From a virus, in IMG/VR virus record IMGVR_UViG_3300029787_000018, positions 1-64,000 of that record: a stretch of DNA of 64,000 bases; one strand, given 5' to 3'. The translations under genes were made by a program, and so were the position numbers. The notes beneath the pieces were generated by a model. It ran no database searches and was not told the DNA's origin. It worked only from the letters and a program-made list of their open reading frames with translations. This document shows, piece by piece, positions 1,016 through 59,114 of the stretch; positions within the stretch are counted from its first letter, which is position 1, and each line of letters opens with the position of its first letter.

Positions 1016-1378
1016 TTAGGAAAGTTTTAGTTCCGGTTTTTTATCGGCTTCTTTTTGAGCTTTCTTTTGACGCTCGGCAATTAGACTATCTAATTCTTTA
1101 GTGATTCTTACACAACTACCCGATAAATGTCTGATTCCTGTTCTATCACGAATCTTTTTGTCCATTGCTTTTTCAATCTCAATGGTAGCTTCGTCAATAT
1201 CCGCAAATGCTTTCGTGCTTTTTTCTACAAGAGGTGCAACTTCTGAATCGGTTAATATATTCTGCTGAACATGGTAAGCGATTTTTTCTTGCGTTCTACT
1301 TAGAACAGCTAATGTCTGCTCTAAAAATGACAGTGTTATCCATAACTCCGTCATTGTCATATTTTCGTATTTTTTCAT
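1016..1378 (-). CDS. Hypothetical helical protein
   Basis: 120-aa ORF, start overlaps the stop of the upstream KTSC gene. Confidence 0.65.
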   Translation of the reverse strand: MKKYENMTMTELWITLSFLEQTLAVLSRTQEKIAYHVQQNILTDSEVAPLVEKSTKAFADIDEATIEIEKAMDKKIRDRTGIRHLSGSCVRITKELDSLIAERQKKAQKEADKKPELKLS

Positions 1379-1587
1379 ACTTTGGTATAGTTATAATTTT
1401 TCTGAATGTTCTGTGCAAAGTACTTCCCTTGAGATGGAGCATTCATTAAATTTTCTTTGATAATTTCAGGAACTTTTGTGTAGCAATAGGTATCACCGCT
1501 CCTAACAAATGTAATATAAAGTTTTTTATTCTTTTTATCGTATTGTCCTGAGTCTAGGTTAGATGAATTAAAAAATAGTTCTTCCAT
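1375..1587 (-). CDS. KTSC domain protein
   Basis: SSNL..GQYD..K.LYITF.RSG.TYCY..VP....NLMNAPSQGKYFAQNI matches the KTSC consensus. Confidence 0.85.
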   Translation of the reverse strand: MEELFFNSSNLDSGQYDKKNKKLYITFVRSGDTYCYTKVPEIIKENLMNAPSQGKYFAQNIQKNYNYTKV

Positions 1588-1593
1588 GATATA

Positions 1594-3276
1594 TTATTCT
1601 TCTGATTTTCCTACGAATCCTGTTATAGATGTTCTGGTTGACATTAATGTTGAAGCTACCGATATAGCACTCTTTAAAGAGTTTACGGTAATCTTTTTAG
1701 GGTCGAATATTTTAGCATCGAAAATATTTACAACTTCTTCCGTACGAACGTTGTACATTTCTTTGAAATTTGTTGTCAAAAGTTTGTTCCTGTAAGCTTC
1801 TACGCTCTTACCTGAGTTTTCGATAATCTTTTCAAATGGAGCAAAGCATGATGCTAGAATAGTATCATAGCCTTTTATGTAATCCGCATCTTTCTGCAGA
1901 TGGTCAACATCTTTTTGCTTTAATGCATCAAGCTTGTAACAGCTTTCGTATAAAGCTACACCACCACCTTTGACAACACCTTCTGCCAATGCTCCTTTTA
2001 CGGCATTAACGGCATCATCTACACGTGCATGTATTTCCTCTGCTTCCACGGGTGTTTCGGCACCTACGAATATAATGGAAATACTTCCCATTAACTTTGC
2101 TTTACGCTGCATAAGTTTGTCTTGCATGTAACCGCTTTCCTCTTCCTCTATAAGCTCGTCAAGGTAATTGATTCTCTGTTGAAGCTTGTCCTTGTCGTAC
2201 TGACCGTTAATAATGGAATATTGATCACGCTTGATATGCATTTCCGCTCGGCCAAGGATTTCATCTGGATCAAGTGTGTTCGCATCTTGCAATTCTTGGA
2301 ACTCACTTTTTAGGACTGCTCTACCACCTGTGTAGATAGCCATTTCATTGGCTACGTAGCTTGCCTGTACTCCAAATTCCGGTAGCTTCAATGCTATAAT
2401 CTGCATACGCTTGCCGTTTTCGTCCACTAGCTTGGCCATATTCTCGAACATCAAATGCAAAGCTTTTACATTAATGTCCGGAGCAATGATAATAAGCGGG
2501 TATCTCGTTTCTTCGTTTTTGAAACTGTTCCATACATGGGTCATTACGGAACTGATTTCGGATAATGAATTTATCTCGTGATCGGTAATGAACAGCTTTG
2601 AGTTCTTTAATACGATTTCGTTGGTAACGCCTAAAGCTTCTAAGAAAAAATCGTGGTGCACGCTATTATAGTGAATCATACCTTCCATGTTCTCTACATA
2701 GCATTCGCTACCTCTGGCCTGGTTTATCTTGATAGGGTTTTTGCCCTTGGAATGTTTGAGCGCTTCCAGAACCAAAGACGATATCATTTTATCGTTGTTA
2801 GATGATATGAACGCTACATTCTCCATAATATCCAAACCTATTTCAGTTTCTAGGTCTATTTGAATACTATCGGCTTCCAAGAATTTGGTAATATCGTTCA
2901 GTGCATCTGTCATTCCTTGTTTGGCTTTTGCCCAACTGGTATGCTCTTCAAATTCCAATATCGTTTCCAATATTACTTTAGCCAATAAAGTTGCTGTAGT
3001 AGTTCCGTCACCGGATTGGGATTGCGCTCGGTTCGCCACTTGTTTCAATATCTGCGCTCCCTGATTTCTTATAGGGTTTCCAAGCTTTATATGCCTGGCA
3101 ACAGTAACACCGTCTTTCGTAACCAAAGGATCGTCGTTCGGTCTATCGATAATAACGGTATATCCGCTAGGACCCATTGTATCTACTACAGCTTCAGCAA
3201 GCTCTATAGCTCCCTGAATCATTTGTTTTTGGATATCCCATCCACGTTTTATTTTAGTGTAAGAAACGTTTTCCAT
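1594..3276 (-). CDS. groEL: Phage-encoded group I chaperonin (GroEL-like)
   Basis: TMGPSG, VTKDGVTVA, GDGTTTAT, RVDDAVNA, EGVVKGGG and IFDP motifs; 560 aa. Confidence 0.95.
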   Translation of the reverse strand: MENVSYTKIKRGWDIQKQMIQGAIELAEAVVDTMGPSGYTVIIDRPNDDPLVTKDGVTVARHIKLGNPIRNQGAQILKQVANRAQSQSGDGTTTATLLAKVILETILEFEEHTSWAKAKQGMTDALNDITKFLEADSIQIDLETEIGLDIMENVAFISSNNDKMISSLVLEALKHSKGKNPIKINQARGSECYVENMEGMIHYNSVHHDFFLEALGVTNEIVLKNSKLFITDHEINSLSEISSVMTHVWNSFKNEETRYPLIIIAPDINVKALHLMFENMAKLVDENGKRMQIIALKLPEFGVQASYVANEMAIYTGGRAVLKSEFQELQDANTLDPDEILGRAEMHIKRDQYSIINGQYDKDKLQQRINYLDELIEEEESGYMQDKLMQRKAKLMGSISIIFVGAETPVEAEEIHARVDDAVNAVKGALAEGVVKGGGVALYESCYKLDALKQKDVDHLQKDADYIKGYDTILASCFAPFEKIIENSGKSVEAYRNKLLTTNFKEMYNVRTEEVVNIFDAKIFDPKKITVNSLKSAISVASTLMSTRTSITGFVGKSEE

Positions 3277-3638
3277 TAAAATATTTGTTTGTCTGTTATT
3301 ATTACTATGTCGCTAGGTACCACCAAAACAGCAGCTTTGGCTTCTACCGTTTTTTCCTTTCCATTTTCAAATCTAGGTCTGAAAGGATGAAAAATATGTG
3401 GTCCGTGTTGCTTATAGTGGCACCATTTGCCAACAGCACCCGCATATCCGGCACTAGCTTTTACTATAACTCCCGTACAAAAATCGGCTTCGTGACCTTC
3501 TTCTTCAAATTTCATTTGTTGTATAGGATTGTCATAGGACACATCCGGAATAACAATAAAACCTTCTTTGGTCATTTGTTGGTTCTCCCACCATACAGGG
3601 GTAAGCTCCACAGGAACTTTATTATAATCTTTTTCCAT
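3276..3638 (-). CDS. Divergent GroES/gp31-like co-chaperonin
   Basis: Immediately upstream of groEL with 1-nt overlap; FIVIPD...TGVIVKAS...VGKWCHY...VLVVPSDIV follows the cpn10 strand pattern. Confidence 0.55.
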   Translation of the reverse strand: MEKDYNKVPVELTPVWWENQQMTKEGFIVIPDVSYDNPIQQMKFEEEGHEADFCTGVIVKASAGYAGAVGKWCHYKQHGPHIFHPFRPRFENGKEKTVEAKAAVLVVPSDIVIITDKQIF

Positions 3639-3861
3639 TTCTTAAATTATTTACTTCATCAAAACAATCTCTACCGTTTTCGTCTAAACCCGATTCATCT
3701 ATAACACCGCTCCACATATGCCTAAAATATTCGACACCGTTCATTTCTCTTGGGTCTTTGGATTCTACCCAAATACCGTTATGGTACTCCATAGGTACGG
3801 ATATCTTATCCCATTTGGCAGAAAAAAACATACCTGTATGCTTTTTGAATATTACGCTCAA
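3622..3861 (-). CDS. Hypothetical protein
   Basis: 79-aa ORF overlapping its neighbours in the operon. Confidence 0.55.
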   Translation of the reverse strand: MSVIFKKHTGMFFSAKWDKISVPMEYHNGIWVESKDPREMNGVEYFRHMWSGVIDESGLDENGRDCFDEVNNLRNGKRL

Positions 3862-4328
3862 AGCATATTTTTTAAACGACTTAACACATCTTGCGGAGTA
3901 TGTCCGTCAAATTCGTATTTGGCTTTTATTACTGCAGGAACTTTAAATTTTTTCCAATCCTTTGCCTTGTAATGATTCGTTACCTGGCCATCAGGTGTTA
4001 TAGCAACTACAATAAACCACGTGTGCTTGCTTTCTGAAAAACATTTTTCTCCGTCATGATGCCGCCACGATTTATGTACATCGTATACACCTTGCTTTGC
4101 CCATTCATTAAACAACAACGCCTGTAGAACCAATCGGAACTCATAAAGCTCTTCAAAGGTATGGTACCCATCACTGATTTTGTTCTCTTCAAAATCATCA
4201 TGGTTTTTCTTGCCATGGTCAATGATGCTTTGAACCCACTCTAAATGCTCTTTTCCATTATACCCCATATCGGTTCTTCTTTCAAAAACAGTTTCTACGG
4301 TTTTTTTTAATTTACTTAGACTTAACAT
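3858..4328 (-). CDS. Conserved phage protein, WDGH-type domain
   Basis: DGYHTFEELY..R, KSWRHHDGEKCF, WFIV, GQVTNHY and FDGHT motifs. Confidence 0.75.
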   Translation of the reverse strand: MLSLSKLKKTVETVFERRTDMGYNGKEHLEWVQSIIDHGKKNHDDFEENKISDGYHTFEELYEFRLVLQALLFNEWAKQGVYDVHKSWRHHDGEKCFSESKHTWFIVVAITPDGQVTNHYKAKDWKKFKVPAVIKAKYEFDGHTPQDVLSRLKNML

Positions 4329-4509: not shown

Positions 4510-4554
4510 TTCACAAAATTAAAAAAGCCTCGGGGGAAACGGCTTTTGTTAATA

Positions 4555-5190
4555 CTACATTTTCAATCCGTCAGCAGTCGGAGCTATTTTATTGTTCTCA
4601 GGCTTATAGCTATCTGGATAAGGATTAGGCTCATTCAATCTTTTTAAATCCATACCTAACCACATGATACTTTCTTGAAGCTTAGTAGTTGCTAATGAAC
4701 GCTCTCTTGAACGACCTAGCTTTTTAAGATTCTGCAATTCTTTATCCAATGACACACGAAGCAATTTGTCACATCTTACATCGTGGTTTACCAAGGAATT
4801 ATCATCCTCCATAGAGATTTTGAACTCGAACGGGTCTACTTTTGGCAACATTGCCGTACAAATAGCAACGAACAGTTCGTCCTTTACCTTCTGGAACTCC
4901 GGAAGTTCATCGAAAGAAACGATACAAGGATGCGTTTTAGCCTCGGCATCCTTTACCTCTCCATAAATCCAACCGTCATTAACTTTGTCTTCCATCCAGG
5001 CATTGTGCTGTGCATCTTTTCCAGCATAAGGATTGGCAAATCTGAACTTAACACCATTGATAGCACTTTCCCTTTGCCATGACTCGGCTTCGTCCCAAGG
5101 CTTTTGTGAATCGTCTCCGTTAATAATGCACCATTGTCTGTTGGCTTCATGACAAGCCATTGCAATAAAAATGAAATTTTCATTTTCCAT
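4555..5190 (-). CDS. RyR-domain protein fused to an Acb2/Tad1-like hairpin domain (candidate nucleotide-signal sponge)
   Basis: N-half: IA.ACHEANR, QHNAWM.DK..DGW.YG.VKD...KTHPCIV.FDELP..QK.KD (RyR). C-half: SRERSLATTKLQESIMWL (Acb2/Tad1-type helix). Confidence 0.7.
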   Translation of the reverse strand: MENENFIFIAMACHEANRQWCIINGDDSQKPWDEAESWQRESAINGVKFRFANPYAGKDAQHNAWMEDKVNDGWIYGEVKDAEAKTHPCIVSFDELPEFQKVKDELFVAICTAMLPKVDPFEFKISMEDDNSLVNHDVRCDKLLRVSLDKELQNLKKLGRSRERSLATTKLQESIMWLGMDLKRLNEPNPYPDSYKPENNKIAPTADGLKM

Positions 5191-5260
5191 AATCTAATCT
5201 GTTTTGCGGTTATAATAATAATCTGCAGTAAATATACATATACTTTTAAACTATCCAAAT

Positions 5261-5294
5261 AAAAAAAGCTACAGGAACTCCCCGTAGCTTTTTT
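5261..5294. terminator. Bidirectional intrinsic terminator-like hairpin
   Basis: AAAAAAAGCTAC-AGGAACTCCCC-GTAGCTTTTTT. Confidence 0.6.
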
Positions 5295-5328
5295 CCAAAA
5301 ATAAAATCGTTCCTGCAAAACGTCGTCT

Positions 5329-30925: not shown

Positions 30926-31390
30926 ATGTTTAGAATTGTAAACACAAAGCGTTCAAATGAAAAAGGTCAAGAATACTTGCTTAGTAGTAAACACATAATT
31001 CCGACTACTTTCTTTAAGTATTTAGACCACCTTATCATTAATGTTATTGAAATGGATCTTAATAATAAAAAGAATATTAAGATTTTTGTAAAACAAGGTG
31101 TATCGGAAGAAGAAGCCGTTAACAGGGTTTCCGATATGATGTTGATATTTATGGATAATCATTACATACAAAATGACCCGATATCAGGACCTTATTTTAT
31201 AGAGAAAGTAAAAGAAGAGGTTTACCCTATGCCCAATGTAAATAGGAAAAAATCAAAATCTGAAATCAAGGAGGAAATAAGTAACCTTGAAACCAGAATG
31301 AACAATGCCGTTAGCAGAGAGAATTACGAAGAAGCTGCTAAGCTTAGAGATCAAATAGAGAAACTTAATGGCAAAGAAACGTCCATATAA
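30926..31390 (+). CDS. UvrB/UvrC (UVR) motif protein
   Basis: LETRMNNAVSRENYEEAAKLRDQI. Confidence 0.75.
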   Translation: MFRIVNTKRSNEKGQEYLLSSKHIIPTTFFKYLDHLIINVIEMDLNNKKNIKIFVKQGVSEEEAVNRVSDMMLIFMDNHYIQNDPISGPYFIEKVKEEVYPMPNVNRKKSKSEIKEEISNLETRMNNAVSRENYEEAAKLRDQIEKLNGKETSI

Positions 31391-33882: not shown

Positions 33883-34668
33883 ACCCACTTTTTAAAAAGC
33901 CGTGCGTGAGGTACGAGGGCAAACACATACAGATTATGAAATACACAGGAAGTAAAAATAGAATTTCAAAATACATATTACCAGTAATGCTTGAAGGTAG
34001 AACCAATGAAACTTGGGTTGAGCCTTTTGTTGGTGGTGCAAATATGATTGATAAAGTTGAAGGAAAAAGAATTGGTTTTGATAATAATGAATATTTAATA
34101 GAGCTATACCATTATTTACAAAATGGAGGTTTAATAGTTAATAGGTTTATAACAAAAGAACAATGGCACAATGTAAAAGAAAATATTGAAAATTACCCAA
34201 AATGGTATGTTGGTTTAGTAGGCGTTTTAGGTTCTTATAATGGTAATTGGTTTAGTGCTTATGGTGGTGGAAGTAAAACTAAAGAAGGTAATTATAGAAA
34301 CTACTTTGATGAAGGTATAAGAGGATTATTAAAACAAGATTTATCTAATATTCAATTTGTATTTTCTGATTATAAAAATATTAAAATACCAAATAATAGT
34401 ATTATTTATTGCGACCCGCCATACCAACTAAAAAACAAAAGATATAAAGAGCATTTTGATAGTGAAGTGTTTTTTGATTGGTTTAGAAATAAAGCAAAAG
34501 AAGGACATAAAGTTTTTGTTTCTGAATATAATGCACCAAAGGATTTTAAATGTATTTGGCAAAAAGAAATAAGTAAAACTAACCCAAAGCAAAAAGTAAA
34601 CAAAATAGAAAAATTATTTACGATTGAGTAAGCCGTAAAGATTGGCGGCTTTTTACATTGTGGGTAAC
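33880..34668 (+). mobile_element. Cassette E
   Basis: GTTACCCACTTTTTAAAAAGCCG / CGGCTTTTTACATTGTGGGTAAC, 20/23 complementary. Confidence 0.85.
33936..34631 (+). CDS. Cassette E gene, D12-class (Dam-like) N6-adenine DNA methyltransferase
   Basis: MKY.GSK, VEPFVGGAN, IYCDPPY, VFVSEY; start moved to ATG 33936. Confidence 0.9.
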   Translation: MKYTGSKNRISKYILPVMLEGRTNETWVEPFVGGANMIDKVEGKRIGFDNNEYLIELYHYLQNGGLIVNRFITKEQWHNVKENIENYPKWYVGLVGVLGSYNGNWFSAYGGGSKTKEGNYRNYFDEGIRGLLKQDLSNIQFVFSDYKNIKIPNNSIIYCDPPYQLKNKRYKEHFDSEVFFDWFRNKAKEGHKVFVSEYNAPKDFKCIWQKEISKTNPKQKVNKIEKLFTIE

Positions 34669-35013: not shown

Positions 35014-38000
35014 TTAAAAAATAGACTCTACCATTGATTTAGTTGTTCTTACTGCAGAAGGTATAAGCTTGTATTCGATCTTATCCAAATCCATGTAGTA
35101 ATTGGCATCCCAATAAGCACTCTCTGCAAACCTATTATCGGTGCTCAATGCAAATCCCCCAATAAGTCCTGACATTGCCAGACCTTTTAGCCCACTATCA
35201 AGTCGTTTGGCTAGCTCAGGACTTTCTTTTTGAAGCTTTTTACGATATTCTATATAATCTTTCGGATTCATGCTTTGAACCTCTGAAACCGTCTTAAAAA
35301 GCATTCTTAGCGAACCGATATGTTCGTTACCATAAATATCTATATCCTGTTTCGCGAATCTATCGTTTACAACAGTAGGTAAGAATCTTGAAAACTGCAA
35401 CATCATTCTACCTAAGCTATATTGCTGAATCAATCTTTGATCAGTAGCTTGATACCCTTTCCCTTGTGATTTCTTCACCTCGTTCTCCAACATGATCAAC
35501 CTTTGTTGATCAATAGGCTCTTCCATAGGTTTATACTCCCCGTTCTCGTCAAACTTGTTCCATTCGGCTTCGGTAAGCATACCCGCCATCTGAACACCTT
35601 GAATCCATTTCTCGCTCCACGTCATTGGCATAAGTGCCAAATCGCCCAAGAAATTATCAAGTCTCCCTTTTGAGGACATAGATACGTTATCGTATACATT
35701 GATATCCATAAAGTTCAACGTCTTTAGAATCTTCTGTGTTCTTTTCATTCGTTTTACAATATCAAATGGATTGGTCGTACTGGTATCCATACCCCAAAAA
35801 CGGCTTTCTCCTTTTGCCCATTCTTTTACAGAACCGTTTTTAATGTTATGGTACTTACCAGAGGCTACGTTACCCATGAAATAACTAGCGTTAAAACCTA
35901 ACTGCCAAAATAGGTTCATCTTAGTCAATAGGTCTACAACCTTATCTCCTTTTTCACCTAATAGGTTTTGTCGCTTGCCTTTTAAGTAGTAATCTTTCCA
36001 GTTCATTTTTACGTACTTACCGGCATTCTTTAAACCTTTGTCCTGGTTCAATGCAAGGACACCATCTACAACAGCTTGCATGCTCTTGAATCCTGCAAAG
36101 TTTTCATTACCGTTAACGAACAACGTAGAATGAACATAGCTGTTAAGCGCATGGTTTAAATCCATAGAAGGCATTTCGGTAGCTTTATTACTACGTGTAT
36201 TGGCAAATCGGTTCATAATACCGAAAGACAATGCAGAATCCATTTCAAAATCGGAAACTTCAATATCCGAACCGTCTTCATTTTTGCCGCTTTTTAAGAG
36301 CTTCTTAGCCTTGTTCTTTAAAAGAATGTAGTCTTTAATCTGCTTGGCATTATTCTTAGTGCTGGCCGACATAGCAGAGTATATGTTATCGATATCCTTA
36401 AAGCTAACAAGCTCTTTTTTGCCAGTGTCCGGATTATCGATATATAGCATTACTTCGTTTAAGGCGTCATCGCTATTTTTCGTAGATTGGAGCAACCCGA
36501 GAAGTCCTCTATTTGAAAAAGATTCAAATGTGCCCATAGAGGTGTGAGGTATATAGCCTCTCCTGACTCTTTTACCGTCTGAGGTAGAAGAAGGGGCAAG
36601 TTCTCCGGTAATGTCAGTGAAAGTTTTGTAGAAGTTGTATTCGGCTTCGGATAATCTGCCTTGCTCTTTAAGTTTGTTGATTTCTTCATTGCTTTTTAGT
36701 TTGAATTCTTTAATGACCTTACCCTCGGAAACAATCTCGTTCTCTTCTACAAGATTACCGTAAAGTATGTTGTAAAGGTCTTTTCTGTTGTGAATATAAC
36801 TATAATAGAAACGTTTTAAAATATCTATAGGGTTACCGCTATCGAACATGAAACCGAACTTCTCTTTGTAAAGTGCGTTCGTAGTTTCGTTGATCCTGGT
36901 AACGTATTTTTTCTTTTCGTTCTGAAACTGTTTCTCCATAGCTGTCATATTCCTTACCATACCTTGTATCTCTGGATGATTGGAAGGAATATTGTTAGCC
37001 ATTAACCAAGTTTGTACAGGACCAAGGTCTTCATTGGTTTTTGTACGTCCTGTCAACTTTGTTTGTTGAGCGGATATCTTTGCCGCCAACGCCTTTACTA
37101 TAGGTGTGGTAATATTGGCATACGCATAGGCATTTTTGGAACCGTACGTTCTATATAGTTCCATAAGCTTTTCGGGGCTGAACTGATTAAAGTCCTTACC
37201 CCTGAAGCTTTTGTTATATATTTCGTTGGCTCTCTTTTTTTCCTTTACGTATTCCTGATAAGCCTGGTTCTTGGATTCCTCTGTTTGAAACTTGTTGAAC
37301 TCCATGGCATCGTTGAACGTCTGCTTGTCCATAAAGTCCTGTGACTTGTAATCCCAGAACTCTTCACGAGCTTCCATGCCTATCGGCTCAGCTTTTTTTT
37401 TAACACGTGGAACAGGATTGTTGGAACTAGAAGTAATGGTAACTAAATCTATATCCAATTGGTTGTTCGTGCGTCTAGGAACTTTTTTTATCATTTTTGT
37501 AGCGTTCTTGGCTAAATGATTAAGTCTGTTCAACGTGTTTGAAATAGGCTTGTTGAATACTTCGGACTTGTTTCCTATAAACTTGTAAAGGTTCATATTG
37601 CCCTTGGCATCCCTTGACTTGAAGTAGAACTGTGTATTGTTCTCCAACGCTGCTCTGAACTGTGGGTTCTTTTGCATTTCTATCATAGCCTTTTCAGGTG
37701 ATAGCCCTTTAATGTCAAAGAAAGGAATATTGTTACGTACACCATTGATATCTTTAAGCATCAATATTTCTTCCAATTCCCTAAGCTCTGGACGCGTATA
37801 GGTTTTATCGTTTTTCTCCTTGAAATCTTGGTTAAGGTTCTCTACCAACATTTTGTTCGTGAACGAGTCGGTAATAGGCAACATGGACAAAGGACTTCCC
37901 CAACCGTTTTTGGTAAGGTCATAATAAACAAGTTTATATTGCAAGTCTGCAGGAAGTTCCGAAAACTCTTTGTTCATTCTACGTACCTCTTGGGTAGTAA

Positions 38001-41000
38001 GGCTTTCATCAAAGAAACTACTGTTCATAGAAATATAAGGCTTGTTTCCATCGAACTTCATATTAAGCCCTTGCGTAAGCAATAGATTGTTTTCAAGATT
38101 GCCTTCCATCTTAAGCCCGGCTATATATTCCGATAAATCTGCAAATACGCTGTTTTCATTTTTAGGATCAACTATTTCGGCCAACTCTTCTTTGGACATA
38201 TTGTTATATCCCGAAATATTGGAATGTAGGAACTTTGAAATACTTCTGGTATACTTCTTAATCTGGTTGTCGTTCAACAGTTCCATGCCTTGCTTAACGG
38301 CCAAGCCTTGTAGCAACTTGGTAATAGCGGGTCTATAAACCAAATCTATTTGTTTGGTATGTTCCAATGTAGCTTCTGCAGTATTCAAATACCTTTTTAA
38401 ATCTGGATTACTAGCCATTTCTGCAGGTATGTTCATCGTAGAATCCTCATTGTTCATAATACGCTTGAACTCTCCTATCTGCTTTTCCAACAAATATGGG
38501 TTGGTTTCAATACCGTTATGACCAGCCATAATCTTACTGACCTTTTGAATGTCGGCATTGACTTCATCCATTTTCATTATTAGGTTAATAATGTTGGACT
38601 GGTTTTTCTGGCTATAGAACTCTTTGTTATTGGTATTGGTAACTACGCCACCTGTAGAATTGGAATCATATTTTACGGTACCGTTATTACCATTGGAAAC
38701 AGACCTTTTAGCTAATTCTGTCAACATTTGCTTTCTAGGGGTGTAACCGTGGAACGCAGAATTGTTTTCGTTCATTATCGAAACATATTCTTTTACCATT
38801 GGAGCGTTCATCATAACGGCTACATCTTCAATAGGAATGTTGAGGTTGACCATTAAGGTAAAAGCCGATACCGTATGTTCGTTTATATTCAATGCATCCG
38901 CTGCATTTTCGTTAAGGTTGTCCAGAATAAGGTTGGCTACCAATGCAGATTTATGGTTACGGCTTTGATCACCTTCTCCCATATCCTCGAATATCTGGTA
39001 ATTGGTATTGTTTACCATTATACCTTCTTTCATATTGGCTCTGTACGCGGCAAGCGTATTGGCAATTCTATGCAAGTTGAAAACGGTACCGATATTCCTT
39101 TTGGCGATCATGGAATCCTCATAGGACTTTCTTCTGTACGATGGAGAAAATGCCAATGGCTGTTCTTTTACATAGTTAGGGAACTGCTCTTTGATATGTT
39201 CCTTTAACTTTTTACCTTCTCCGGAAGTGTCCATTGCCGTTTGAATGAACGGTGCCATTTTTTCACTAAGCCATAGCTTTTCCATACGGTCTATGACTTC
39301 GTTCATTTTTTTGTTTTTTCCTTTATGTTGGATGAACAAGGCATCACCATCTAAATCCGCACCTATTGTCTTACTGAAAGAAGTAGGTACCTGTACTTGG
39401 TTTCCTTTACCAACGGCAAACTCAACAGCTTCGAATATACCTGTAAAGTTTGGTCCGTTTGAAGGAACACGAGTGGCTATTACCGTTTCCCCAGGAACAT
39501 AATAACCGATTACCTTACCGTCTTTAAGAACGGTCTGTGTTTCAAGTTTTGGCGTTGTTTTATCCCTATTTTTATTAAGGTGTGCTACAAACTTGTCCGC
39601 AGCTTCTTTTAAACGCATAAGGTCGTTTTCTTGCGGTGTTTTGGTCTTGTCAAGATAACCGTTCGTATCAGTGGCTTTGATAGCCATTTCGCCTAATTTA
39701 CTATCAGGTGTATAGTATTTTCTGGCTCTTACCTTTCCATTTAAATGTTGGGGCAATACAATCTCCGCCCTATTAAGTCCTGTAGAAGCTTGCGTATAAC
39801 CGTTAAGCTCATTACTTCCTTTTATTTCTCCATCAACAGGCAATTCCCATCCATAACTAGACTTCTGGTGCGCATACGTACCAGCTATTCTTAACTTGTT
39901 ACCTTTTGACTTTAAAGTGTTCGCTAATTGATTGGAAACGATCTCTATTGCTCTAGGGTGTAGTATACCATATTTTTCGATAACGAACCTTTGGACTTGA
40001 TCCATGTCCTCTTTGTTCATTTCCTTGGTAACTATTTTATTATATGTAGCAACATCTTTCTTTTTAAGTTCATTGGTAACCTCGTTAAGGTTTTCGGACA
40101 TCATATCCGATATCAGTTCTTGTATCGCTTCGGCTTCTTCAAGATGCCCAAGATTTAAAGAATGAACTAATAGCGAGTTCATTTGCTGTACAGGTAACGT
40201 TACTTCATCGGTAACTTTATCCATTACTTGTTGTGGTCCAAAGTTGTAACCACTGATACCCATAAAACCACCTTTGGAATCATACATGATGTTGTCTTGG
40301 AACTCACCCGCTTTGGTAACTCCCTCTTCGTTCATAAGCTCGTTTAAGTATGGTGCATTCTCCATACCCTTGCCTTTTTGAATTCCCGTTTTCTCAGAAG
40401 AAAAAGGAATTGCTATCGGAAAGTAGTTCTCTAGACCATCGGTAAAGTTATCACTAGGCATTGCACCATTGTTCTTTTTAGCGTATGCATCGAACATTTT
40501 AGCACGTCTGGCTTTCATATGTTCGTATAATCCTTTGAACTTGTAGTTCTGATCAACAAAATCTTGGTCGATTATAGTAGTATATCCTTTAAGCAATACG
40601 GTGTTACCTCTAAAGTTCGGGTTGTCTTTTTCTACAGAGTAGTTAAGGAACTTGAAACCTTCATTCAAATCAAATACACCTTTACCAACATTAGCCCAGC
40701 GCTCAGCATCTTCTCTAAGTATGAACATACCACCATCGGTAGAAGCTTCATTATCTTTAGGGTCTTTAAAGAATATAGGCTCAAACTTTAAGTTCTTGTT
40801 TACGGATATAACAGGACTACCGGCATTCTTTAAACGCTTGGCAATACTTGATATCTTAATGTTAGGAGATACTACCTCAGCCATGAACAGACCGTTCATA
40901 ATTTGATTGTATACATATCCTTTTACAATTTTTTCTCCTTTAGGATTAAGCTTTCCGTTTTTATCGAACATAGATTTTAAAGAATCTATCTTCATAAGTT

Positions 41001-44000
41001 CCTTGCCGTTTTTATTAAAGAAATCAACTTCTTTTTCTCCTTCTTTAATCAACGATAAGTTAAACTGACGTTTACTTATATTTTCCTCAGATATATTTCT
41101 GTAAATATTATAAGCCGCAGTAGTAGTATCGTTGGACATATCAAGCCTTTTAGTAGGCATGTAATACTTTCTAGGACTATCACCGAAAACACCGACGTTC
41201 GCCAAATATGTTTTTTTGTTAAGTCCGGAAGCGTACATCATAAAGTCCTCAAAGGACTGTTCGTATGAAGTACTGTCCTCAAATGCATTGGCATTGTTGC
41301 TTACGCTATCATCGATACCGGTATAGTAAACAAGGTCTGGTTTGTTTCCAGCTACTACACTATCATAGAAATTGTCCAAAAATTGATTAGGAACGGGTTT
41401 GCTGTACGCTTTTGAACGAGTGATATGAGAATACCTTTTTATAAAATCGGCTTTAGGAATCACGTCACCGTCCTTATTAGGGCGTAATGAATCGTACATC
41501 TGGTCAAGCTCTTTGGTCATGTGGTTGTTCATCATACGAACAGGAACCATATTTCCTTTGGCATTCTCTACAACACTATCTTGGGTAAACTCCCTATTAG
41601 TAGCCATAATAGCATTGGCAATAGGTCTAAAGTTATAAGGGTACATATACCTGTTACCGTTCTTGGCGGGTTTACCTAAATGCTTGTCGTTATCGATAAA
41701 GCTTTTAAGAACTGTTACAGGGCTATAGTAAGTACCTTTTACGTTGATAAAACCATTTTCCAATATATCCATCATTTTTACGTCAGGAGGTGCCATAAAT
41801 CGATATGCCTTTACGTAATCTTCATTAGTAGCAGTATCGTCTTTTATTCTAGCTACGATACCCTCGAACTCCGACCATTGATCACCTAATAAATGACCGC
41901 TCTTTTTAAGCATGTAATCTCTGGCTTTAGCCATATTGTCCATCATGTCTTGTGCTTGGCTCTGCTCTCTTTTAGATAAAGATTCTTCAATAGAGTGGTT
42001 TATTTTGCCATCGTTCTCCGACATAACGGACTTAACGGCATTTACCATTCTATAGTTGGAGAACAGCGTCCATGTAGAATTCAAAAGAACGGTTTTGGCT
42101 TCCGGTGCACGTAGTTCCAAAAATTTGTTGAATGCTTGGATATCCGCATGAGGACTGTTTTCAAGTGCGTCTATAAAATCAACGGAGTTGTTTGTATTGG
42201 CAGCCAATTGGAACATCTTGTACCTAAACTCTTTCTTATCGAATAAAGGACCTTGCTTGCCCCATATGCTTTTTCTAAGCCTAATGGCACGATTGTACTC
42301 TTTTACAAAGTTGTTGATTATTTTGGTAGCCTTAGCTGTTCTGGTCATAAAGCTTTTTTCCGCTATACTGATAACGTTATCGGCATCCTCTTGGTTGTCC
42401 GCAACCTCATCTAGTATCTGGTCTAAAGCATCCTCTTTTCTAGTGAACAAGTTCTTGTTCTCTTCCGGGTCAAAATTGGCAACTTCTTCTTCAAGCCTGC
42501 TCTTGACCTTTACCCTACGTTGCATGATGTTTGCATCGTAAGCTGTGGAGCGAGATTCAAAACCTATTTCGGTAGCTTCTATTCTAGGTACTTCTTTAAG
42601 GAACTCCATAACGATGTAATCCCTCATATTATCAATTGAAAGATCTTGGCCGTCGTTAAGCTTTTGAATAAGCTCTTGGCTTTCCTGTAAGTAAGTAGGT
42701 TCAGATTTAGCCTTGGTATCTATCATCTTCCACCACTTACGGGTAGTATTGGTTCTTTTAGCTTCTGTACTAAGACCAAAGAAATTATTGTACTTTTTAG
42801 AAAGAGGACCTTGCATAGTAGCTACAAAGGCTTCTTCCAGAATGTATTTCTGCTCGGCCAAAGGTAAAATAGATGCTCCGTACTCAACTAGGTCTTCCTC
42901 GGTAGGTTTACCTGAGAACGTTCCTACTTCTTTACTTTCACCAACACCAAAATTATATAGAACATAATCTGGATATCTTTCAGCTATTTCATTTACAAGC
43001 TTTTTGTTTGCCATGACCTGTTCCAGGACCGCTTTGGTTTCTGGTCTGTCCTTTGCGAATCTGTAGAAGATGTGTGTCATTTCGTGCATGAACACTTCGC
43101 CTTGGTTCCATTCATCGCTACGAACGAATACTGCTGCAGAAACAGCAAGTCCGGTACCTCGTATACCCAACGCTTTTACAAGGTCGTCAAGTATGTATGC
43201 ATTTACCCTACTATCAGCTTTAGGGAACATAAAGTTCAAACGCTGATTAATGGCAACCATTTTATCAAGGTCGCTAGGACTGTTACGTATACGTCCTATA
43301 ATAGGAGCTTCGGCTCTGTTCTCTTCAAGAGGTTCGTTGTTCTCCTCAAAGGTTACGAACTCGTCGGCTTCATTTTGTTCAGATAACTCTGAATTTGATT
43401 CAGCTAATTCATCGCCTCTTGATTCCATAAAAGGACCAACTCCTTTTTTATAAGCATCTATAGCACTACTAAGTTTCTTTTTGATCTTAGTAGCCTGGCT
43501 TTTGATTTGCTTCTTTGTTTTGTTAACCTGCTTTGGCTCGGCTTGCTTGTTAACAAAGTTCTGGAACTGCTTGGATTTATCCTTGGCGGTTTCTTTTACC
43601 TTGTCAAAAGTATCGTTGAATTTGTCTACTATTTCCTGCTCTTTGGGAGTCAACGATTTTTGACCTTTTATTTTAGCTACGATATCATCGTACGTCTTTT
43701 TTGCTAAACCTTTAGGTAATGCTTTATTAGCTTTAGCCTTAGCTTTTTCTGCTAGTTCTGAAATACGTTTCTTAACCTCTTTGGCACGTTGCTCTCTTTT
43801 AGAAGCATCTTCCTTAGATTCTTTTTTCTTGGGCTTACTAAGTGTTTCGGACTCTTCTTCCAAATCACTAAGCTCATTTAATTCATCCTCTGTAATATCA
43901 TCTGAAACCTCACCCGTTACATCATCTGATTCTACACTATCGTTTTCCCCATTTTCTTCTCCCTGAACGTCTCCGGCAGTAGCACCATCGATTTCATTAT

Positions 44001-56941: not shown

Positions 56942-57363
56942 GGTGGATTGTCATAGAAATTACTATGTGCTTGGGTTCGTTTAAAACTTATTGTTCTGGT
57001 GTTGCTCTCACCTACGATACCAACGGTAAGCTGATATTCCGATTCAAGGTTCTGTACTTCGCTGTTGGCAAGCTTTACCGTGTAAGGTGTCGTACCTGCA
57101 GAAAAGTTTTTTGAACCTATGAACATAGAAACACCATTCGGTGCGGGATTGTTTCCTCCTGCATTTCCAGCTATCATTTCACCAAAAGCATCTCCGGTAT
57201 ATCCATCGGGTATAATAATAATTCCTTGGAAAACACTCTCGCATGCATTTGAGGTAACAGTAGGATTGGAAACTTTGAACTTTACTTCACCGTTTCCACC
57301 TGTACCGCCATCTGAAACAATAACAGTAGATTTTCTAAGAATATTTTTTAAAAAATTTTTCAT
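56932..57363 (-). CDS. Tail-associated hypothetical protein
   Basis: 143-aa beta-rich ORF. Confidence 0.55.
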   Translation of the reverse strand: MKNFLKNILRKSTVIVSDGGTGGNGEVKFKVSNPTVTSNACESVFQGIIIIPDGYTGDAFGEMIAGNAGGNNPAPNGVSMFIGSKNFSAGTTPYTVKLANSEVQNLESEYQLTVGIVGESNTRTISFKRTQAHSNFYDNPPCI

Positions 57364-59114
57364 TATAAATCTTTTAGGTCGCCTGACAATAAATATTCAT
57401 TAGTAAGACTTGCGTTGACTACAGAAGTAGAATTGGTAAATTCATTGTTACACATTAAATAAGCTGAGTAATATTGACCTAATAGCTTAGTTGATTTGTC
57501 TGCCGGTTTTCTAATGGTTACACCACTAGAAGAAGCGATTATAGTTATTTCATTTACATCGGACGCACTTTGTACAAGGCCACATTCAAAACCTATAGGC
57601 AATAATGGAACTATAAGGTTATTGTTACCATTGCTTTCTATGTGCAAAATAAGACCGTTATCCTCTTCTTTAATAGTATACGGCAATGTAACCGTTTTCT
57701 TTAAAGAAAGTACTTCCTCATATATTTTGGTCACCATACAATAGGCTTCTTTTTCATTGACACCTTCGTAGTAGTAATATTCATTAAAAGCAATAGTAGG
57801 AGTTGCTAAAGGAAAATTGGTTCCAGCATTACTCCACAATCTAAAAGCCCAATAATTAGAGTTAAGGTTTTGAAGAGCTATTTTTCTGGAAAGTATTTTT
57901 ATATAAGCCAATTTTTGCATTGACTTTGTAGTATTATCCTTGTACTTAAAAAAAGACAATCCAAGAACATCGTTAGGCTTATTGAAAATTCTTTTACCTA
58001 CGGATATATCTTTTTTGACAAGCAAATAGATTCTTGATTCATATTTACACATTACAAAATCTATTCCTGCAGGATAAGGAAACCCTGGAAAACTTGTAGA
58101 ATTATAATTTGTAGTAAGATCGGCAGTATAGAATCCTTTTTCCATAAAACCGTTAATAGATTTTGAAACGAACAAATTTTCATATATGTCCGAACTCTGA
58201 ACAGGCTTGAAGCTTTCTTTGCTCAATTGACCATCAGCATTCAGTATTCCTGAAAAATCTTCTGTAATAGTAGAATTATCGGTAAACAAAAATGTAACGA
58301 TTCCTGTTTCTTCATCTAATGTTATATCCGCAATAGTAGCTACATTACCTCCAAAAATATTATCTAAATCTGTATTGTAAATAAGTTGGTTACCTTTTGT
58401 AAATACTAAATTGGTACCTAATATTTCAACATTGTACGGAGAAGGTTTTACAACATGAACGAATACTTTTTGAATATTGTAATCGGTAAGTAAATCCCAA
58501 TCGCTTTTTTCTATAATATCGAGAATTCTATAATTTCCATAAGTATTCTCGGTAATAGTAAAATGACCTAAATAAGTATTGTTGGTTCCGTTGACCATTT
58601 TTATTTCAGCGCCTACGTTTTCATTTGCCAACATTTGAAAACCGGACTGTGAAACAAAATTATTAGATACCAATGCTACGTTTTGAACACCGGTTCCTAT
58701 ATTCAGCGTACCAAAGTACATTGCCTGTGTAGGATTGGTTTCTTCTTTTATTTCGATGTTTACGGATGGTTCTGTGTAGAATAAGGATTTTACTATGCCA
58801 GAGCTTTGAGAACTGTCAAGAACAAAATTGAATATCCTTTCACTATAGTCTTTTCCCTTTACTATTGTATTGGGCGGATATACAAAGCTTGGTGTTATTA
58901 AACCATTTGAACCAAAAGTTACTTCTTCCCATCTATATGTTTCGTTGGTTTCCACACAATAGGAAATCATTCCCTCGTAATAAGTAAAAGCTTTTGAATT
59001 GGCTTCTCCAAGGTCTTTCATTTCGTCCAAGGTTTCAAACAAGGACTTAGCATCTAAAGGAAACATCGATGCGACTCTTAGGGATTTTGAGATATCGGAA
59101 ACACTATCGCTCAT
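57363..59114 (-). CDS. Tail fibre/spike-associated protein
   Basis: N-terminal PLDAK...YYEGM..YCVE...TY.W; C-terminal phage-fibre-type domain ending EYLLSGDL. Confidence 0.65.
   Translation of the reverse strand: MSDSVSDISKSLRVASMFPLDAKSLFETLDEMKDLGEANSKAFTYYEGMISYCVETNETYRWEEVTFGSNGLITPSFVYPPNTIVKGKDYSERIFNFVLDSSQSSGIVKSLFYTEPSVNIEIKEETNPTQAMYFGTLNIGTGVQNVALVSNNFVSQSGFQMLANENVGAEIKMVNGTNNTYLGHFTITENTYGNYRILDIIEKSDWDLLTDYNIQKVFVHVVKPSPYNVEILGTNLVFTKGNQLIYNTDLDNIFGGNVATIADITLDEETGIVTFLFTDNSTITEDFSGILNADGQLSKESFKPVQSSDIYENLFVSKSINGFMEKGFYTADLTTNYNSTSFPGFPYPAGIDFVMCKYESRIYLLVKKDISVGKRIFNKPNDVLGLSFFKYKDNTTKSMQKLAYIKILSRKIALQNLNSNYWAFRLWSNAGTNFPLATPTIAFNEYYYYEGVNEKEAYCMVTKIYEEVLSLKKTVTLPYTIKEEDNGLILHIESNGNNNLIVPLLPIGFECGLVQSASDVNEITIIASSSGVTIRKPADKSTKLLGQYYSAYLMCNNEFTNSTSVVNASLTNEYLLSGDLKDL

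What the first reader, a model, noticed from the sequence alone, without database searches (positions are those of the whole stretch)
4555..5190. RyR domain fused to an Acb2/Tad1-like domain: candidate dual immune-signal sponge
Seen: a clear RyR-repeat domain followed by a helical domain with SRERSLATTKLQESIMWL. Known: Acb2 and Tad1 sponges share a hairpin with an R.xS(L/I)AxTxL(E/Q)xxxMW-like motif and sequester CBASS/Thoeris signals, and fusion partners of sponges are often anti-defence proteins too. Inference: the RyR domain may bind another signalling nucleotide.
Basis: partly seen in the sequence, partly recalled or inferred. Interest (0 to 1): 0.7.

Follow-up and report, generated by a model that had tools for sequence, protein, structure and literature searches.

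The report
Phage RyR–Tad1-hairpin fused signal sponge
One 211-residue phage protein joins two modules that phages are known to use separately to soak up bacterial immune alarm nucleotides, so it probably blunts Thoeris and CBASS immunity at once; both modules and the habit of fusing sponges are published, and only this pairing appears unreported.

Summary
ORF 4555-5190 (minus strand, 211 aa) has an N-terminal RyR/R12 domain (Pfam E 1.2e-10) and a C-terminal helical hairpin carrying SRERSLATTKLQESIMWL.

The RyR half is 47% identical to RyR Tad (Pectobacterium phage CB1 gp68), a proven 3'cADPR sponge. It keeps all six of that protein's ligand residues. Two 2026 preprints (RyDEP; RyR Tad) show that phage RyR domains sequester or cleave Thoeris cADPR signals.

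The C-terminal half belongs to a large viral family: 3044 stand-alone homologues and 1128 clusters at 50% identity. A profile of this family hits Tad1 at E 7.7e-6. It keeps 7 of the 8 CmTad1 residues that form the hexamer interface, two of which also bind the cyclic trinucleotide. It models as a homotrimer through those residues (0.72 against a best control of 0.01).

It also has a very conserved helix-1 stripe and an NPYP...PTADGLKL tail that are unexplained.

RyR is also found fused to Tad2-like domains, and split RyR/hairpin gene pairs occur.

My reading is a two-module sponge, anti-Thoeris plus probably anti-CBASS, at confidence about 0.55. The ligand of the hairpin half is inferred only.

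The scan found the same fusion earlier in at least three other genomes. It is a new variant of known kinds.

The parts
4555..5190 (-). Whole ORF, 211 aa plus stop: the RyR-hairpin fusion protein (P0001)
   Evidence: About 45 full-length homologues at 43-64% identity, nearly all with PF24729 and PF02026 on record.
4849..5190 (-). RyR / R12-type domain, residues 1-114 (helices 2-23, 37-52, 60-71, 98-114). Ligand residues are H62, W65, K80, H87, K103 and D104.
   Evidence: Pfam E 1.2e-10. PDB RyR repeats E 4e-22. AF2 block pLDDT 89-98. Top Foldseek rows are RyR chains. 47% identity to RyR Tad gp68, E 7e-32. H62, W65, K80 and K103 are invariant in 44 fusion homologues, and H87 and D104 are at least 90% conserved.
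4804..4848 (-). Linker, residues 115-129, variable in length and sequence among homologues
   Evidence: AF2 shows no regular structure here and lower pLDDT. Alignments show gaps and low conservation.
4639..4803 (-). Acb2/Tad1-type helical hairpin, residues 130-184. Tad1-like residues: R162, T169, K170, Q172, E173, M176, W177. Conserved helix-1 stripe: K142, R145, D149, Q153, K156.
   Evidence: PF24729 E 1.4e-4 for this protein, 46 of 46 relatives match. The profile hits CmTad1 at E 7.7e-6. AF2 block pLDDT 93-98. Trimer model 0.72 against a control of 0.01, with its interface on residues 161-164, 166-171 and 173-181.
4558..4638 (-). Conserved C-terminal tail, residues 185-211 (LNEPNPYPDSYKPENNKIAPTADGLKM), disordered in monomer models
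   Evidence: P190, Y191 and P192 are 91-94% conserved, S194 89%, and T205-A206-D207 about 83%, across 150 representatives. The module ends at the protein's C-terminus in 124 of 128. pLDDT falls from 77 to 35 along the tail.
5261..5295 (-). Terminator-like hairpin with a U-run, upstream of the gene. It ends the preceding transcription unit.
   Evidence: Free energy -20.1 kcal/mol, z -5.2, and 0 of 200 shuffles fold as well.
5229..5259 (-). Candidate Bacteroidota-type promoter (TTTG, 19 nt, TATATTTA) between the upstream hairpin and the ATG
   Evidence: Read from the sequence. The consensus TTTG/TAnnTTTG is recalled from memory and was not tested.
4518..4553 (-). Weaker terminator-like hairpin with a U-run, directly after the stop codon
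   Evidence: Free energy -8.1 kcal/mol, z -3.1, and 3 of 200 shuffles fold as well.

Best explanation
The gene encodes a two-module counter-defence 'sponge'.

The N-terminal RyR (R12-type) domain binds the Thoeris alarm molecules 2'cADPR and 3'cADPR in the pocket lined by H62, W65, K80, H87, K103 and D104. It withholds them from the ThsA-type effector. By analogy with solved relatives it probably works as a back-to-back dimer.

The C-terminal Acb2/Tad1-type hairpin assembles the protein around a three-fold axis. As in Tad1 and Acb2, R162 of one chain and T169 of the next would hold the phosphates of a cyclic trinucleotide such as the CBASS signals cA3 or cAAG.

Dimeric heads on trimeric hairpins would give a trimer of dimers. 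This repeats the Tad1 layout (six cADPR sites and two trinucleotide sites), with the RyR domain in place of Tad1's beta-sheet head.

A second pocket, made by the conserved helix-1 stripe (K142, R145, D149, Q153) and the free C-terminal NPYP tail, may hold a further ligand.

Shown here: the domain homologies, the residue conservation, the modelled trimer, and the recurrence of the fusion and of split gene pairs. Shown in the literature for relatives: cADPR binding by RyR domains and trinucleotide binding by the R/T pair. Inferred: every ligand of this protein, the hexamer, and the second pocket.
For: RyR half:
- Pfam and PDB hits.
- Four-helix model at pLDDT 87, whose best Foldseek rows are RyR chains.
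- 47% identity, E 7e-32, to RyR Tad gp68. H129, W132, K147, H154, K170 and D171 of gp68 align with H62, W65, K80, H87, K103 and D104.
- gp68 binds 3'cADPR at KD 43 nM, and its W132A mutant loses anti-Thoeris activity.
- RyDEP H75, W78, H100 and D117 have the same spacing as H62, W65, H87 and D104. Six of eight tested homologues bind 2'/3'cADPR.

Hairpin half:
- 46 of 46 relatives match PF24729.
- The family profile hits CmTad1 at E 7.7e-6.
- R88, T95, K96, Q98, E99, M102 and W103 of CmTad1 align with R162, T169, K170, Q172, E173, M176 and W177. CmTad1 R88 and T95, and PaMx33 Acb2 R67 and T74, bind cA3.
- The homotrimer model scores 0.72 (median of three runs) against a best control of 0.01. 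In the tool's calibration this mark was reached by 20 of 30 proteins solved as pairs and by 1 of 23 solved as single chains; those counts hold only roughly here. The runs agree in at least 83% of contacts, and the partner's pLDDT is at least 65. The interface lies on residues 161-181.

Linkage of the two modules:
- About 45 full-length fusion homologues.
- RyR fused to Tad2-like PF11195 (P0058, P0068) and to a short classical hairpin (P0064, P0089, Sulfitobacter phage phiCB2047-B).
- Split adjacent pairs in L023, L013 and L014, and a hairpin gene next to a Tad2-like gene in 5 loci.
- A published precedent for a sponge-sponge fusion, Acb4-Sequestin.
Against: - No ligand was docked or measured for this protein.
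- This protein's own PF24729 score (22.4 bits) is below Pfam's cut-off.
- R162 and T169 are only 81-82% conserved in the wider family. In Tad1 the equivalent residues also serve hexamer formation, so they do not prove ligand binding.
- The nearest Acb2-type structure by single-sequence search, Acb2_43, keeps the R/T pair. It binds 3'cADPR and did not inhibit the two dinucleotide CBASS systems tested.
- The hairpin module is also fused to methyltransferase, HTH and other non-sponge domains. That would fit a generic oligomerisation role.
- The trimer pass may reflect the model's memory of solved Tad1 and Acb2 hexamers.
- Whether a RyR dimer and a hairpin trimer can coexist across a 15-residue linker was not modelled, because the hexamer exceeds the size limit.
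- The conserved tail has no counterpart in characterised Acb2 or Tad1.
Confidence: 0.55

Rival explanations
1. This is a single-target sponge with a scaffold. Only the RyR domain binds a signal (cADPR isomers). The hairpin merely multimerises it to raise local site density or stability and binds no ligand of its own.
For: The hairpin module sits at the C-terminus of many unrelated N-terminal domains: crAss001_48, WDGH, gp49_66, methyltransferase and HTH. In Tad1 the R/T pair is also needed for hexamer formation. The trimer model explains conservation of the motif without a ligand.
Against: Thousands of stand-alone 78-95-residue versions exist, and they need a function of their own. The most conserved residues, the helix-1 stripe and the tail, lie outside the modelled interface. 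Characterised hairpin proteins (Acb2, Tad1, Acb2_43) all bind ligands.
Confidence: 0.18
2. Both modules target Thoeris. The hairpin half binds 3'cADPR or another ADPR-derived signal, as Acb2_43 does. The fusion then broadens or strengthens anti-Thoeris action rather than adding anti-CBASS action.
For: [quoted passage not shown] RyR is also fused to Tad2-like domains, which are Thoeris sponges too.
Against: The match to Acb2_43 is weak (E 0.55). The family profile prefers Tad1, whose homologous residues bind cyclic trinucleotides. Acb2_43 was not tested against cA3.
Confidence: 0.15
3. The RyR domain is an enzyme. Like mycobacteriophage RyDEP, it is an inverting glycosidase that cleaves 2'/3'cADPR to ADPR rather than sequestering it. 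The hairpin supplies assembly and/or a second, sponge-type site.
For: The RyDEP catalytic dyad H75/D117 is present as H62/D104, with W65 and H87 also conserved.
Against: The same residues are present in the non-catalytic sponges H4 and H7/gp68. Only 1 of 9 tested family members cleaves. This domain is 47% identical to the sponge gp68.
Confidence: 0.1
4. The protein has no counter-defence role. It could be a nucleotide-sensing or regulatory protein of phage metabolism, or a binder of a host protein through the conserved tail.
For: No experiment exists on this protein. The tail is conserved like a peptide-interaction motif. Neighbouring genes in the window (GroEL, KTSC, WDGH) are not known anti-defence genes.
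Against: Every characterised phage member of both families is an immune-signal antagonist. The gene recurs fused or adjacent to Tad2-like genes.
Confidence: 0.04

Closest known systems
RyR Tad (gp68 of Pectobacterium phage vB_PatP_CB1), which matches RyDEP homologue H7; bioRxiv 10.64898/2026.06.04.730250 and PMC13232231
   Same: The RyR/R12 domain is 47% identical (E 7e-32) and all six 3'cADPR-binding residues are conserved. Both are phage-encoded two-domain proteins. gp68 lies in an accessory-gene hotspot; this gene has its own flanking terminator-like hairpins.
   Different: In gp68 the RyR domain is C-terminal, behind a beta-sheet domain of unknown function that had no activity on its own. 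Here it is N-terminal and is followed by an Acb2/Tad1-type hairpin. Neither preprint's text mentions such a fusion.
RyDEP (mycobacteriophage DyoEdafos), an inverting glycosidase for 2'/3'cADPR; PMC13232231
   Same: Same Pfam family. H75, W78, H100 and D117 correspond to H62, W65, H87 and D104 with identical spacing.
   Different: RyDEP is a stand-alone 137-residue enzyme and is more distant in sequence. Catalysis cannot be predicted from these residues, because the sponge homologues keep them.
Tad1 (CmTad1 8KBB-8KBD; CbTad1 7UAV, 8KBE/F)
   Same: The helical hairpin carries the same motif. R88, T95, K96, Q98, E99, M102 and W103 align with R162, T169, K170, Q172, E173, M176 and W177, and the profile E-value is 7.7e-6. 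Both have a ligand-binding N-terminal head on a C-terminal hairpin. Assembly around a three-fold axis is predicted.
   Different: Tad1's N-terminal antiparallel beta-sheet head is absent and replaced by a RyR domain. The Tad1 gcADPR pocket residues F82, N92, R109 and R113 are not kept (the aligned residues are L155, R164, D181 and L185). The NPYP tail has no Tad1 counterpart.
Acb2 (PaMx33 8H2J, T4 Vs.4 7UQ2, Acb2_43 9PTQ)
   Same: The stand-alone relatives of the C-terminal half are the size of Acb2 (78-95 aa). They share the hairpin and the R...T pair at i and i+7, which binds cA3 in PaMx33 Acb2. There is a weak direct hit to Acb2_43 (E 0.55).
   Different: The family profile finds no Acb2 chain in the PDB at E up to 10. 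The Y11/K26 dinucleotide pocket cannot be aligned. The conserved tail is specific to this subfamily.
Acb4-Sequestin fusion (gp59 of Pseudomonas phage Ab09); 10.64898/2026.06.04.730250
   Same: It is a natural fusion of an anti-CBASS sponge and an anti-Thoeris sponge in one phage protein, shown to bind both gcADPR and cGAMP.
   Different: Both of its domain families are unrelated to those found here.

Membership tests
Phage RyR-domain anti-Thoeris proteins (RyDEP / RyR Tad; Pfam PF02026) | PF02026 match above the gathering score | tested here: met
   41.9 bits against a cut-off of 27.4, E 1.2e-10.
Phage RyR-domain anti-Thoeris proteins (RyDEP / RyR Tad; Pfam PF02026) | Four-helix R12 half-repeat fold | tested here: met
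   The AF2 model has helices 2-23, 37-52, 60-71 and 98-114 with block pLDDT 89-98. The top Foldseek rows are RyR chains at probability 1.0, E about 1e-3.
Phage RyR-domain anti-Thoeris proteins (RyDEP / RyR Tad; Pfam PF02026) | Ligand-pocket residues (gp68 H129, W132, K147, H154, K170, D171; RyDEP H75, W78, H100, D117) | tested here: met
   The BLASTP alignment places H62, W65, K80, H87, K103 and D104 opposite them. They are invariant or at least 90% conserved in 44 fusion homologues.
Phage RyR-domain anti-Thoeris proteins (RyDEP / RyR Tad; Pfam PF02026) | Back-to-back homodimer through helices 1 and 4 | not tested
Phage RyR-domain anti-Thoeris proteins (RyDEP / RyR Tad; Pfam PF02026) | Binds or cleaves 2'cADPR/3'cADPR and rescues phage from Thoeris | not testable with these tools
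   This needs EMSA, SPR or TLC, and plaque assays.
Acb2/Tad1 hairpin superfamily (Pfam PF24729) | PF24729 match for this protein alone | tested here: inconclusive
   22.4 bits against a cut-off of 27, E 1.4e-4.
Acb2/Tad1 hairpin superfamily (Pfam PF24729) | Family-level homology to the hairpin of solved sponges | tested here: met
   46 of 46 relatives match PF24729, best E 9e-18. The profile hits CmTad1 at E 7.7e-6.
Acb2/Tad1 hairpin superfamily (Pfam PF24729) | Two long antiparallel helices | tested here: met
   AF2 gives helices 130-156 and 162-184 with block pLDDT 93-98. Fold searches cannot tell this from any other helical hairpin.
Acb2/Tad1 hairpin superfamily (Pfam PF24729) | Arg and Thr seven residues apart on helix 2 (the cyclic-trinucleotide site) | tested here: met
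   R162 and T169 are invariant in the 44 fusion homologues and 81-82% conserved in 150 family representatives.
Acb2/Tad1 hairpin superfamily (Pfam PF24729) | Assembly around a three-fold axis (hexamer in solved members) | tested here: inconclusive
   The three-copy model scores 0.72 against a best control of 0.01. This is a model only, may come from memory of solved hexamers, and the hexamer itself could not be run.
Tad1 in the strict sense | N-terminal antiparallel beta-sheet head joined to the hairpin | tested here: not met
   The head is an all-helical RyR domain.
Tad1 in the strict sense | gcADPR/dinucleotide pocket residues (CbTad1 F82, N92, R109, R113) | tested here: not met
   Extending the HMMER alignment, the equivalent residues are L155, R164, D181 and L185. 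The alignment beyond W177 is uncertain.
Acb2 in the strict sense | Dinucleotide pocket (PaMx33 Y11, K26) | tested here: inconclusive
   No Acb2 chain appears in the profile search. There is only a weak pairing of K142 and R145 with Acb2_43 K16 and K19 (E 0.55).

The most novel reading that the evidence does not exclude
The NPYP-tailed hairpin would be a general C-terminal 'sponge chassis'. It trimerises or hexamerises, carries its own nucleotide pockets, and is joined interchangeably to different ligand-binding heads. With a RyR head it would rebuild the Tad1 design by domain swap: a D3 hexamer with six cADPR sites and two trinucleotide sites. On this reading its other recurrent heads are also undiscovered anti-signalling modules. 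These are WDGH (also a stand-alone gene two positions downstream in this window), crAss001_48 and N4 gp49/Sf6 gp66.
Probability: 0.25. Interest if true: 0.7.

Novelty: new variant of a known kind. Interest (0 to 1): 0.5.

Why it matters
If the reading is right, one small protein neutralises two of the commonest signalling defences of bacteria. It would do so with a layout that mimics Tad1 but has a different head, which would show that phage sponges evolve by swapping modules on a shared hairpin scaffold.

It also points to a very large and apparently untested subfamily of hairpin proteins, with 1128 clusters at 50% identity. Its most conserved features, the helix-1 stripe and the free C-terminal tail, are not explained by what is known of Acb2 or Tad1.

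Finally, it names further candidate anti-defence domains by their fusion partners: WDGH, crAss001_48 and gp49_66.

The practical value is a short list of constructs and mutants for binding and plaque assays. The conceptual gain is modest, because both modules and sponge fusions are already published.

Tried and rejected
- Foldseek and VIA-align searches with the monomeric hairpin model. There was no match at E 0.001 or better. Any helical hairpin (BRAF BRS, seryl-tRNA synthetase arm, designed bundles) reaches Z about 8, and Tad1 chains appear only among weak rows (8kbb_D: rmsd 2.8 A over 43 columns, 40% identity). Fold comparison therefore cannot confirm or refute an Acb2/Tad1 fold.
- A six-chain hexamer job. 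No cA3 or cADPR ligand is offered by the tool.
- Synteny. None of 15 neighbouring window proteins has a homologue in the 80 IMG/VR loci that carry RyR or hairpin genes. The gene therefore does not sit in a conserved hotspot that I could recognise.
- N4-like affiliation. I first took the 3756-residue ORF for an N4-type virion RNA polymerase. PHROGs gives it no family, and it has no tblastn match in 50,697 phage records. The 583-residue ORF has none either. I do not assign the phage to a family or place the gene in the published N4 'anti-signalling hotspot'.
- Other known sponges in the window. Pfam and PHROGs scans of about 30 small ORFs found none.
- Whether the NPYP subfamily was among the 84 homologues tested by Hadary et al. 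The supplementary tables are not held.
- Identity of PDB entry 35tm (a 139-residue RyR-domain protein, E 1.3e-11). It could not be established.

Full report
**Observation.** The window is the first 64 kb of a 77,139-bp single-contig phage genome. An ATG-to-stop ORF of 211 codons occupies exactly 4555-5190 on the minus strand.

- Pfam gives RyR (PF02026) at E 1.2e-10, above its cut-off, over residues 61-104.
- Pfam gives Acb2_Tad1_hairpin (PF24729) at E 1.4e-4 and 22.4 bits, below the cut-off of 27, over residues 157-178.
- phmmer against the PDB returns ryanodine-receptor Repeat12 domains at E down to 4e-22. It also returns a 139-residue 'RyR domain-containing protein', 35tm, at E 1.3e-11.
- AlphaFold2 on an alignment of 44 full-length homologues (pLDDT 87) gives four helices for residues 2-114, a 15-residue linker, a hairpin (130-156 and 162-184) and a low-confidence tail.

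**The RyR half.** Two preprints of mid-2026 establish what phage RyR domains do.

[quoted passage not shown] Six of eight tested homologues bind these Thoeris signals without cleaving them. Two of them (H4 from a Ruegeria phage, H7 from a Pectobacterium phage) are nanomolar sponges that rescue phage from Thoeris (PMC13232231).
- Independently, gp68 of Pectobacterium phage vB_PatP_CB1 ('RyR Tad') was shown to be a dimeric sponge for 3'cADPR with a KD of 43 nM. Its binding residues are H129, W132, K147, H154, K170 and D171 (10.64898/2026.06.04.730250).

I fetched gp68 from the phage record and aligned it. The window protein is 47% identical over residues 8-114 (E 7e-32). H62, W65, K80, H87, K103 and D104 sit opposite all six binding residues. 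The RyDEP residues H75, W78, H100 and D117 have the same spacing. These positions are invariant or at least 90% conserved in the 44 fusion homologues.

The sponges keep the RyDEP catalytic dyad, so sequence cannot tell a sponge from an enzyme. The closer kinship to gp68, and the rarity of catalysis among tested members, favour a sponge.

**The hairpin half.**

- Residues 121-211 alone find 3044 proteins of 50-160 residues. Most are 78-95 residues long and carry PF24729. One is the 95-residue Gundel1_107 of Tenacibaculum phage Gundel_1 (69% identity), whose next gene is a DUF2829/Tad2-family gene.
- An exhaustive profile search counts 1128 clusters at 50% identity.
- All 46 aligned members match PF24729, with a best E of 9e-18.
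- Their profile hits CmTad1 (8kbb) at E 7.7e-6, and CbTad1 more weakly.
- The single sequence gives only weak hits to Tad1 (E 0.1) and to Acb2 homologue 43 (E 0.55).
- The aligned stretch is the functional core of Tad1. In CmTad1, R88 and T95 hold the phosphates of cA3. R88, T95, K96, Q98, E99, M102, W103 and K106 make the hexamer interface (PMC10680739). PaMx33 Acb2 uses R67 and T74 in the same way (PMC10312549).
- Here the equivalents are R162, T169, K170, Q172, E173, M176 and W177, so seven of eight are kept.
- A three-copy model scores 0.72 (median of three runs) against a best control of 0.01. In the tool's calibration this mark was reached by 20 of 30 proteins solved as pairs and by 1 of 23 solved as single chains, and those counts hold only roughly here. 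The runs agree in at least 83% of contacts, and the partner's pLDDT is at least 65. The confident interface lies on residues 161-164, 166-171 and 173-181. This pass may come from memory of solved Tad1 and Acb2 hexamers. It shows likeness, not binding.

**What is not explained by Tad1 or Acb2.** I counted conservation across 150 representatives of different clusters.

- The most conserved positions are a polar stripe on helix 1: K142 96%, R145 99%, D149 99%, Q153 97% and K156 90%. None of them is in the modelled trimer interface.
- The M176-M180 turn and K183 are 94-99% conserved.
- In the tail, P190-Y191-P192 are 91-94% conserved, S194 is 89%, and T205-A206-D207 are about 83%.
- The module ends within two residues of the protein's C-terminus in 124 of 128 representatives.

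In Acb2 and Tad1, the terminal segments and basic residues of helix 1 form the second, 'vertex' pocket. I therefore infer a second pocket here, with an unknown ligand.

**Linkage of the two modules.**

- The fusion recurs. About 45 full-length homologues at 43-64% identity were found, nearly all with both Pfam domains on record, several on 70-82-kb viral contigs.
- RyR is also fused to Tad2-like domains (P0058, P0068). It is fused to a shorter, classical hairpin without the tail in P0064, P0089 and Sulfitobacter phage phiCB2047-B SUFG_00048.
- In IMG/VR loci the two modules also occur as separate adjacent genes in either order (L023, L013, L014). The hairpin gene lies next to a Tad2-like gene in five loci.
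- The hairpin module has other N-terminal partners: crAss001_48, WDGH, N4 gp49/Sf6 gp66, a methyltransferase and HTH domains.
- A fusion of two sponges, Acb4-Sequestin, has been characterised.
- Neither RyR preprint mentions a hairpin fusion in its text or in its homologue table. A four-term full-text search finds no other paper.

**Context.** The gene stands between two terminator-like hairpins. The upstream one folds at -20.1 kcal/mol with z -5.2. The downstream one folds at -8.1 kcal/mol with z -3.1. A possible Bacteroidota-type promoter lies between the upstream hairpin and the ATG. That consensus is recalled from memory and was not tested.

Its neighbours are a phage GroEL, a KTSC-domain ORF, a WDGH-domain ORF and unknowns. 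None of these neighbours recurs beside the gene in other phages, so it behaves as a mobile accessory gene.

The phage has no close cultured relative. I do not assign it to a family.

**Reading.** The best-supported mechanism is a two-module sponge. RyR heads would sequester 2'/3'cADPR. Tad1-type hairpins would assemble the protein about a three-fold axis and would most probably hold a cyclic trinucleotide between R162 and T169. This gives a Tad1-like trimer of dimers with a swapped head. My confidence is about 0.55 for the whole reading, about 0.8 for cADPR binding by the RyR half, and about 0.5-0.6 for a ligand in the hairpin half.

The rivals are:
- the hairpin is a mere scaffold (0.18);
- both halves are anti-Thoeris, as Acb2_43 would suggest (0.15);
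- the RyR half is a RyDEP-type glycosidase (0.10);
- the protein has no defence role (0.04).

**Classification.** The protein is a member of the phage RyR-domain family and of the Acb2/Tad1 hairpin superfamily. It is not a Tad1 in the strict sense, because it lacks the beta-sheet head and the gcADPR pocket residues are not kept. It is not demonstrably an Acb2 in the strict sense either.

**Earlier scan notes.** Earlier notes of this scan report the same fusion in at least three other genomes, and adjacent RyR/hairpin pairs in others, with the same reading. I reached my reading before seeing them, and they are not independent evidence.

**Verdict.** It is a new variant, an unreported pairing, of two known kinds. 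Interest is moderate.

Noticed in passing
window 3858-4328 (-): A 156-residue WDGH-domain protein (PF25311, E 6.7e-35) lies two genes downstream of the fusion. The same domain is fused to the NPYP-type hairpin in other metagenomic proteins (P0288, P0309, P0290). No paper in the library mentions the domain, and it has no PDB relative. It is a candidate further anti-signalling head.
   Followed up: partly
window 1594-3276 (-), 3276-3638 (-) and 1375-1587 (-): A phage-encoded GroEL-type chaperonin (phrog_5725, E 1e-100) is directly preceded by an unannotated 120-residue ORF in the position of a co-chaperonin. Just downstream lies a 70-residue KTSC-domain ORF (PF13619, E 1.6e-19).
   Followed up: no
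window 35014-46284 (-) and 57363-59114 (-): A giant 3756-residue ORF has no PHROG family and no tblastn match in 50,697 phage records. The 583-residue ORF also has none. The phage, a 77,139-bp single contig, has no close cultured relative.
   Followed up: partly
L014:659-1255 (+) and L014:1299-1655 (+); L013 shows the same arrangement; L023:5884-6327 (+) and L023:6417-6728 (+): These are split forms of the fusion. In L014 (and in L013) an N4 gp49/Sf6 gp66-family domain fused to the hairpin is followed by a stand-alone RyR gene. In L023 a RyR gene is followed by a stand-alone hairpin gene.
   Followed up: partly
P0257, P0258, P0266 and others; also 4 of the 87 longer representatives scanned: crAss001_48 (PF21825) is a recurrent N-terminal partner of the NPYP hairpin. 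Hadary et al. excluded sponge homologues carrying this domain from their test set, so these fusions are probably untested.
   Followed up: no
window 33906-34631 (+) and 30926-31390 (+): A D12-class N6-adenine DNA methyltransferase (E 3e-14) lies at the end of the accessory-gene stretch that another note calls integron-like. A 154-residue ORF there carries a UvrB/UvrC motif (E 1.9e-12).
   Followed up: no
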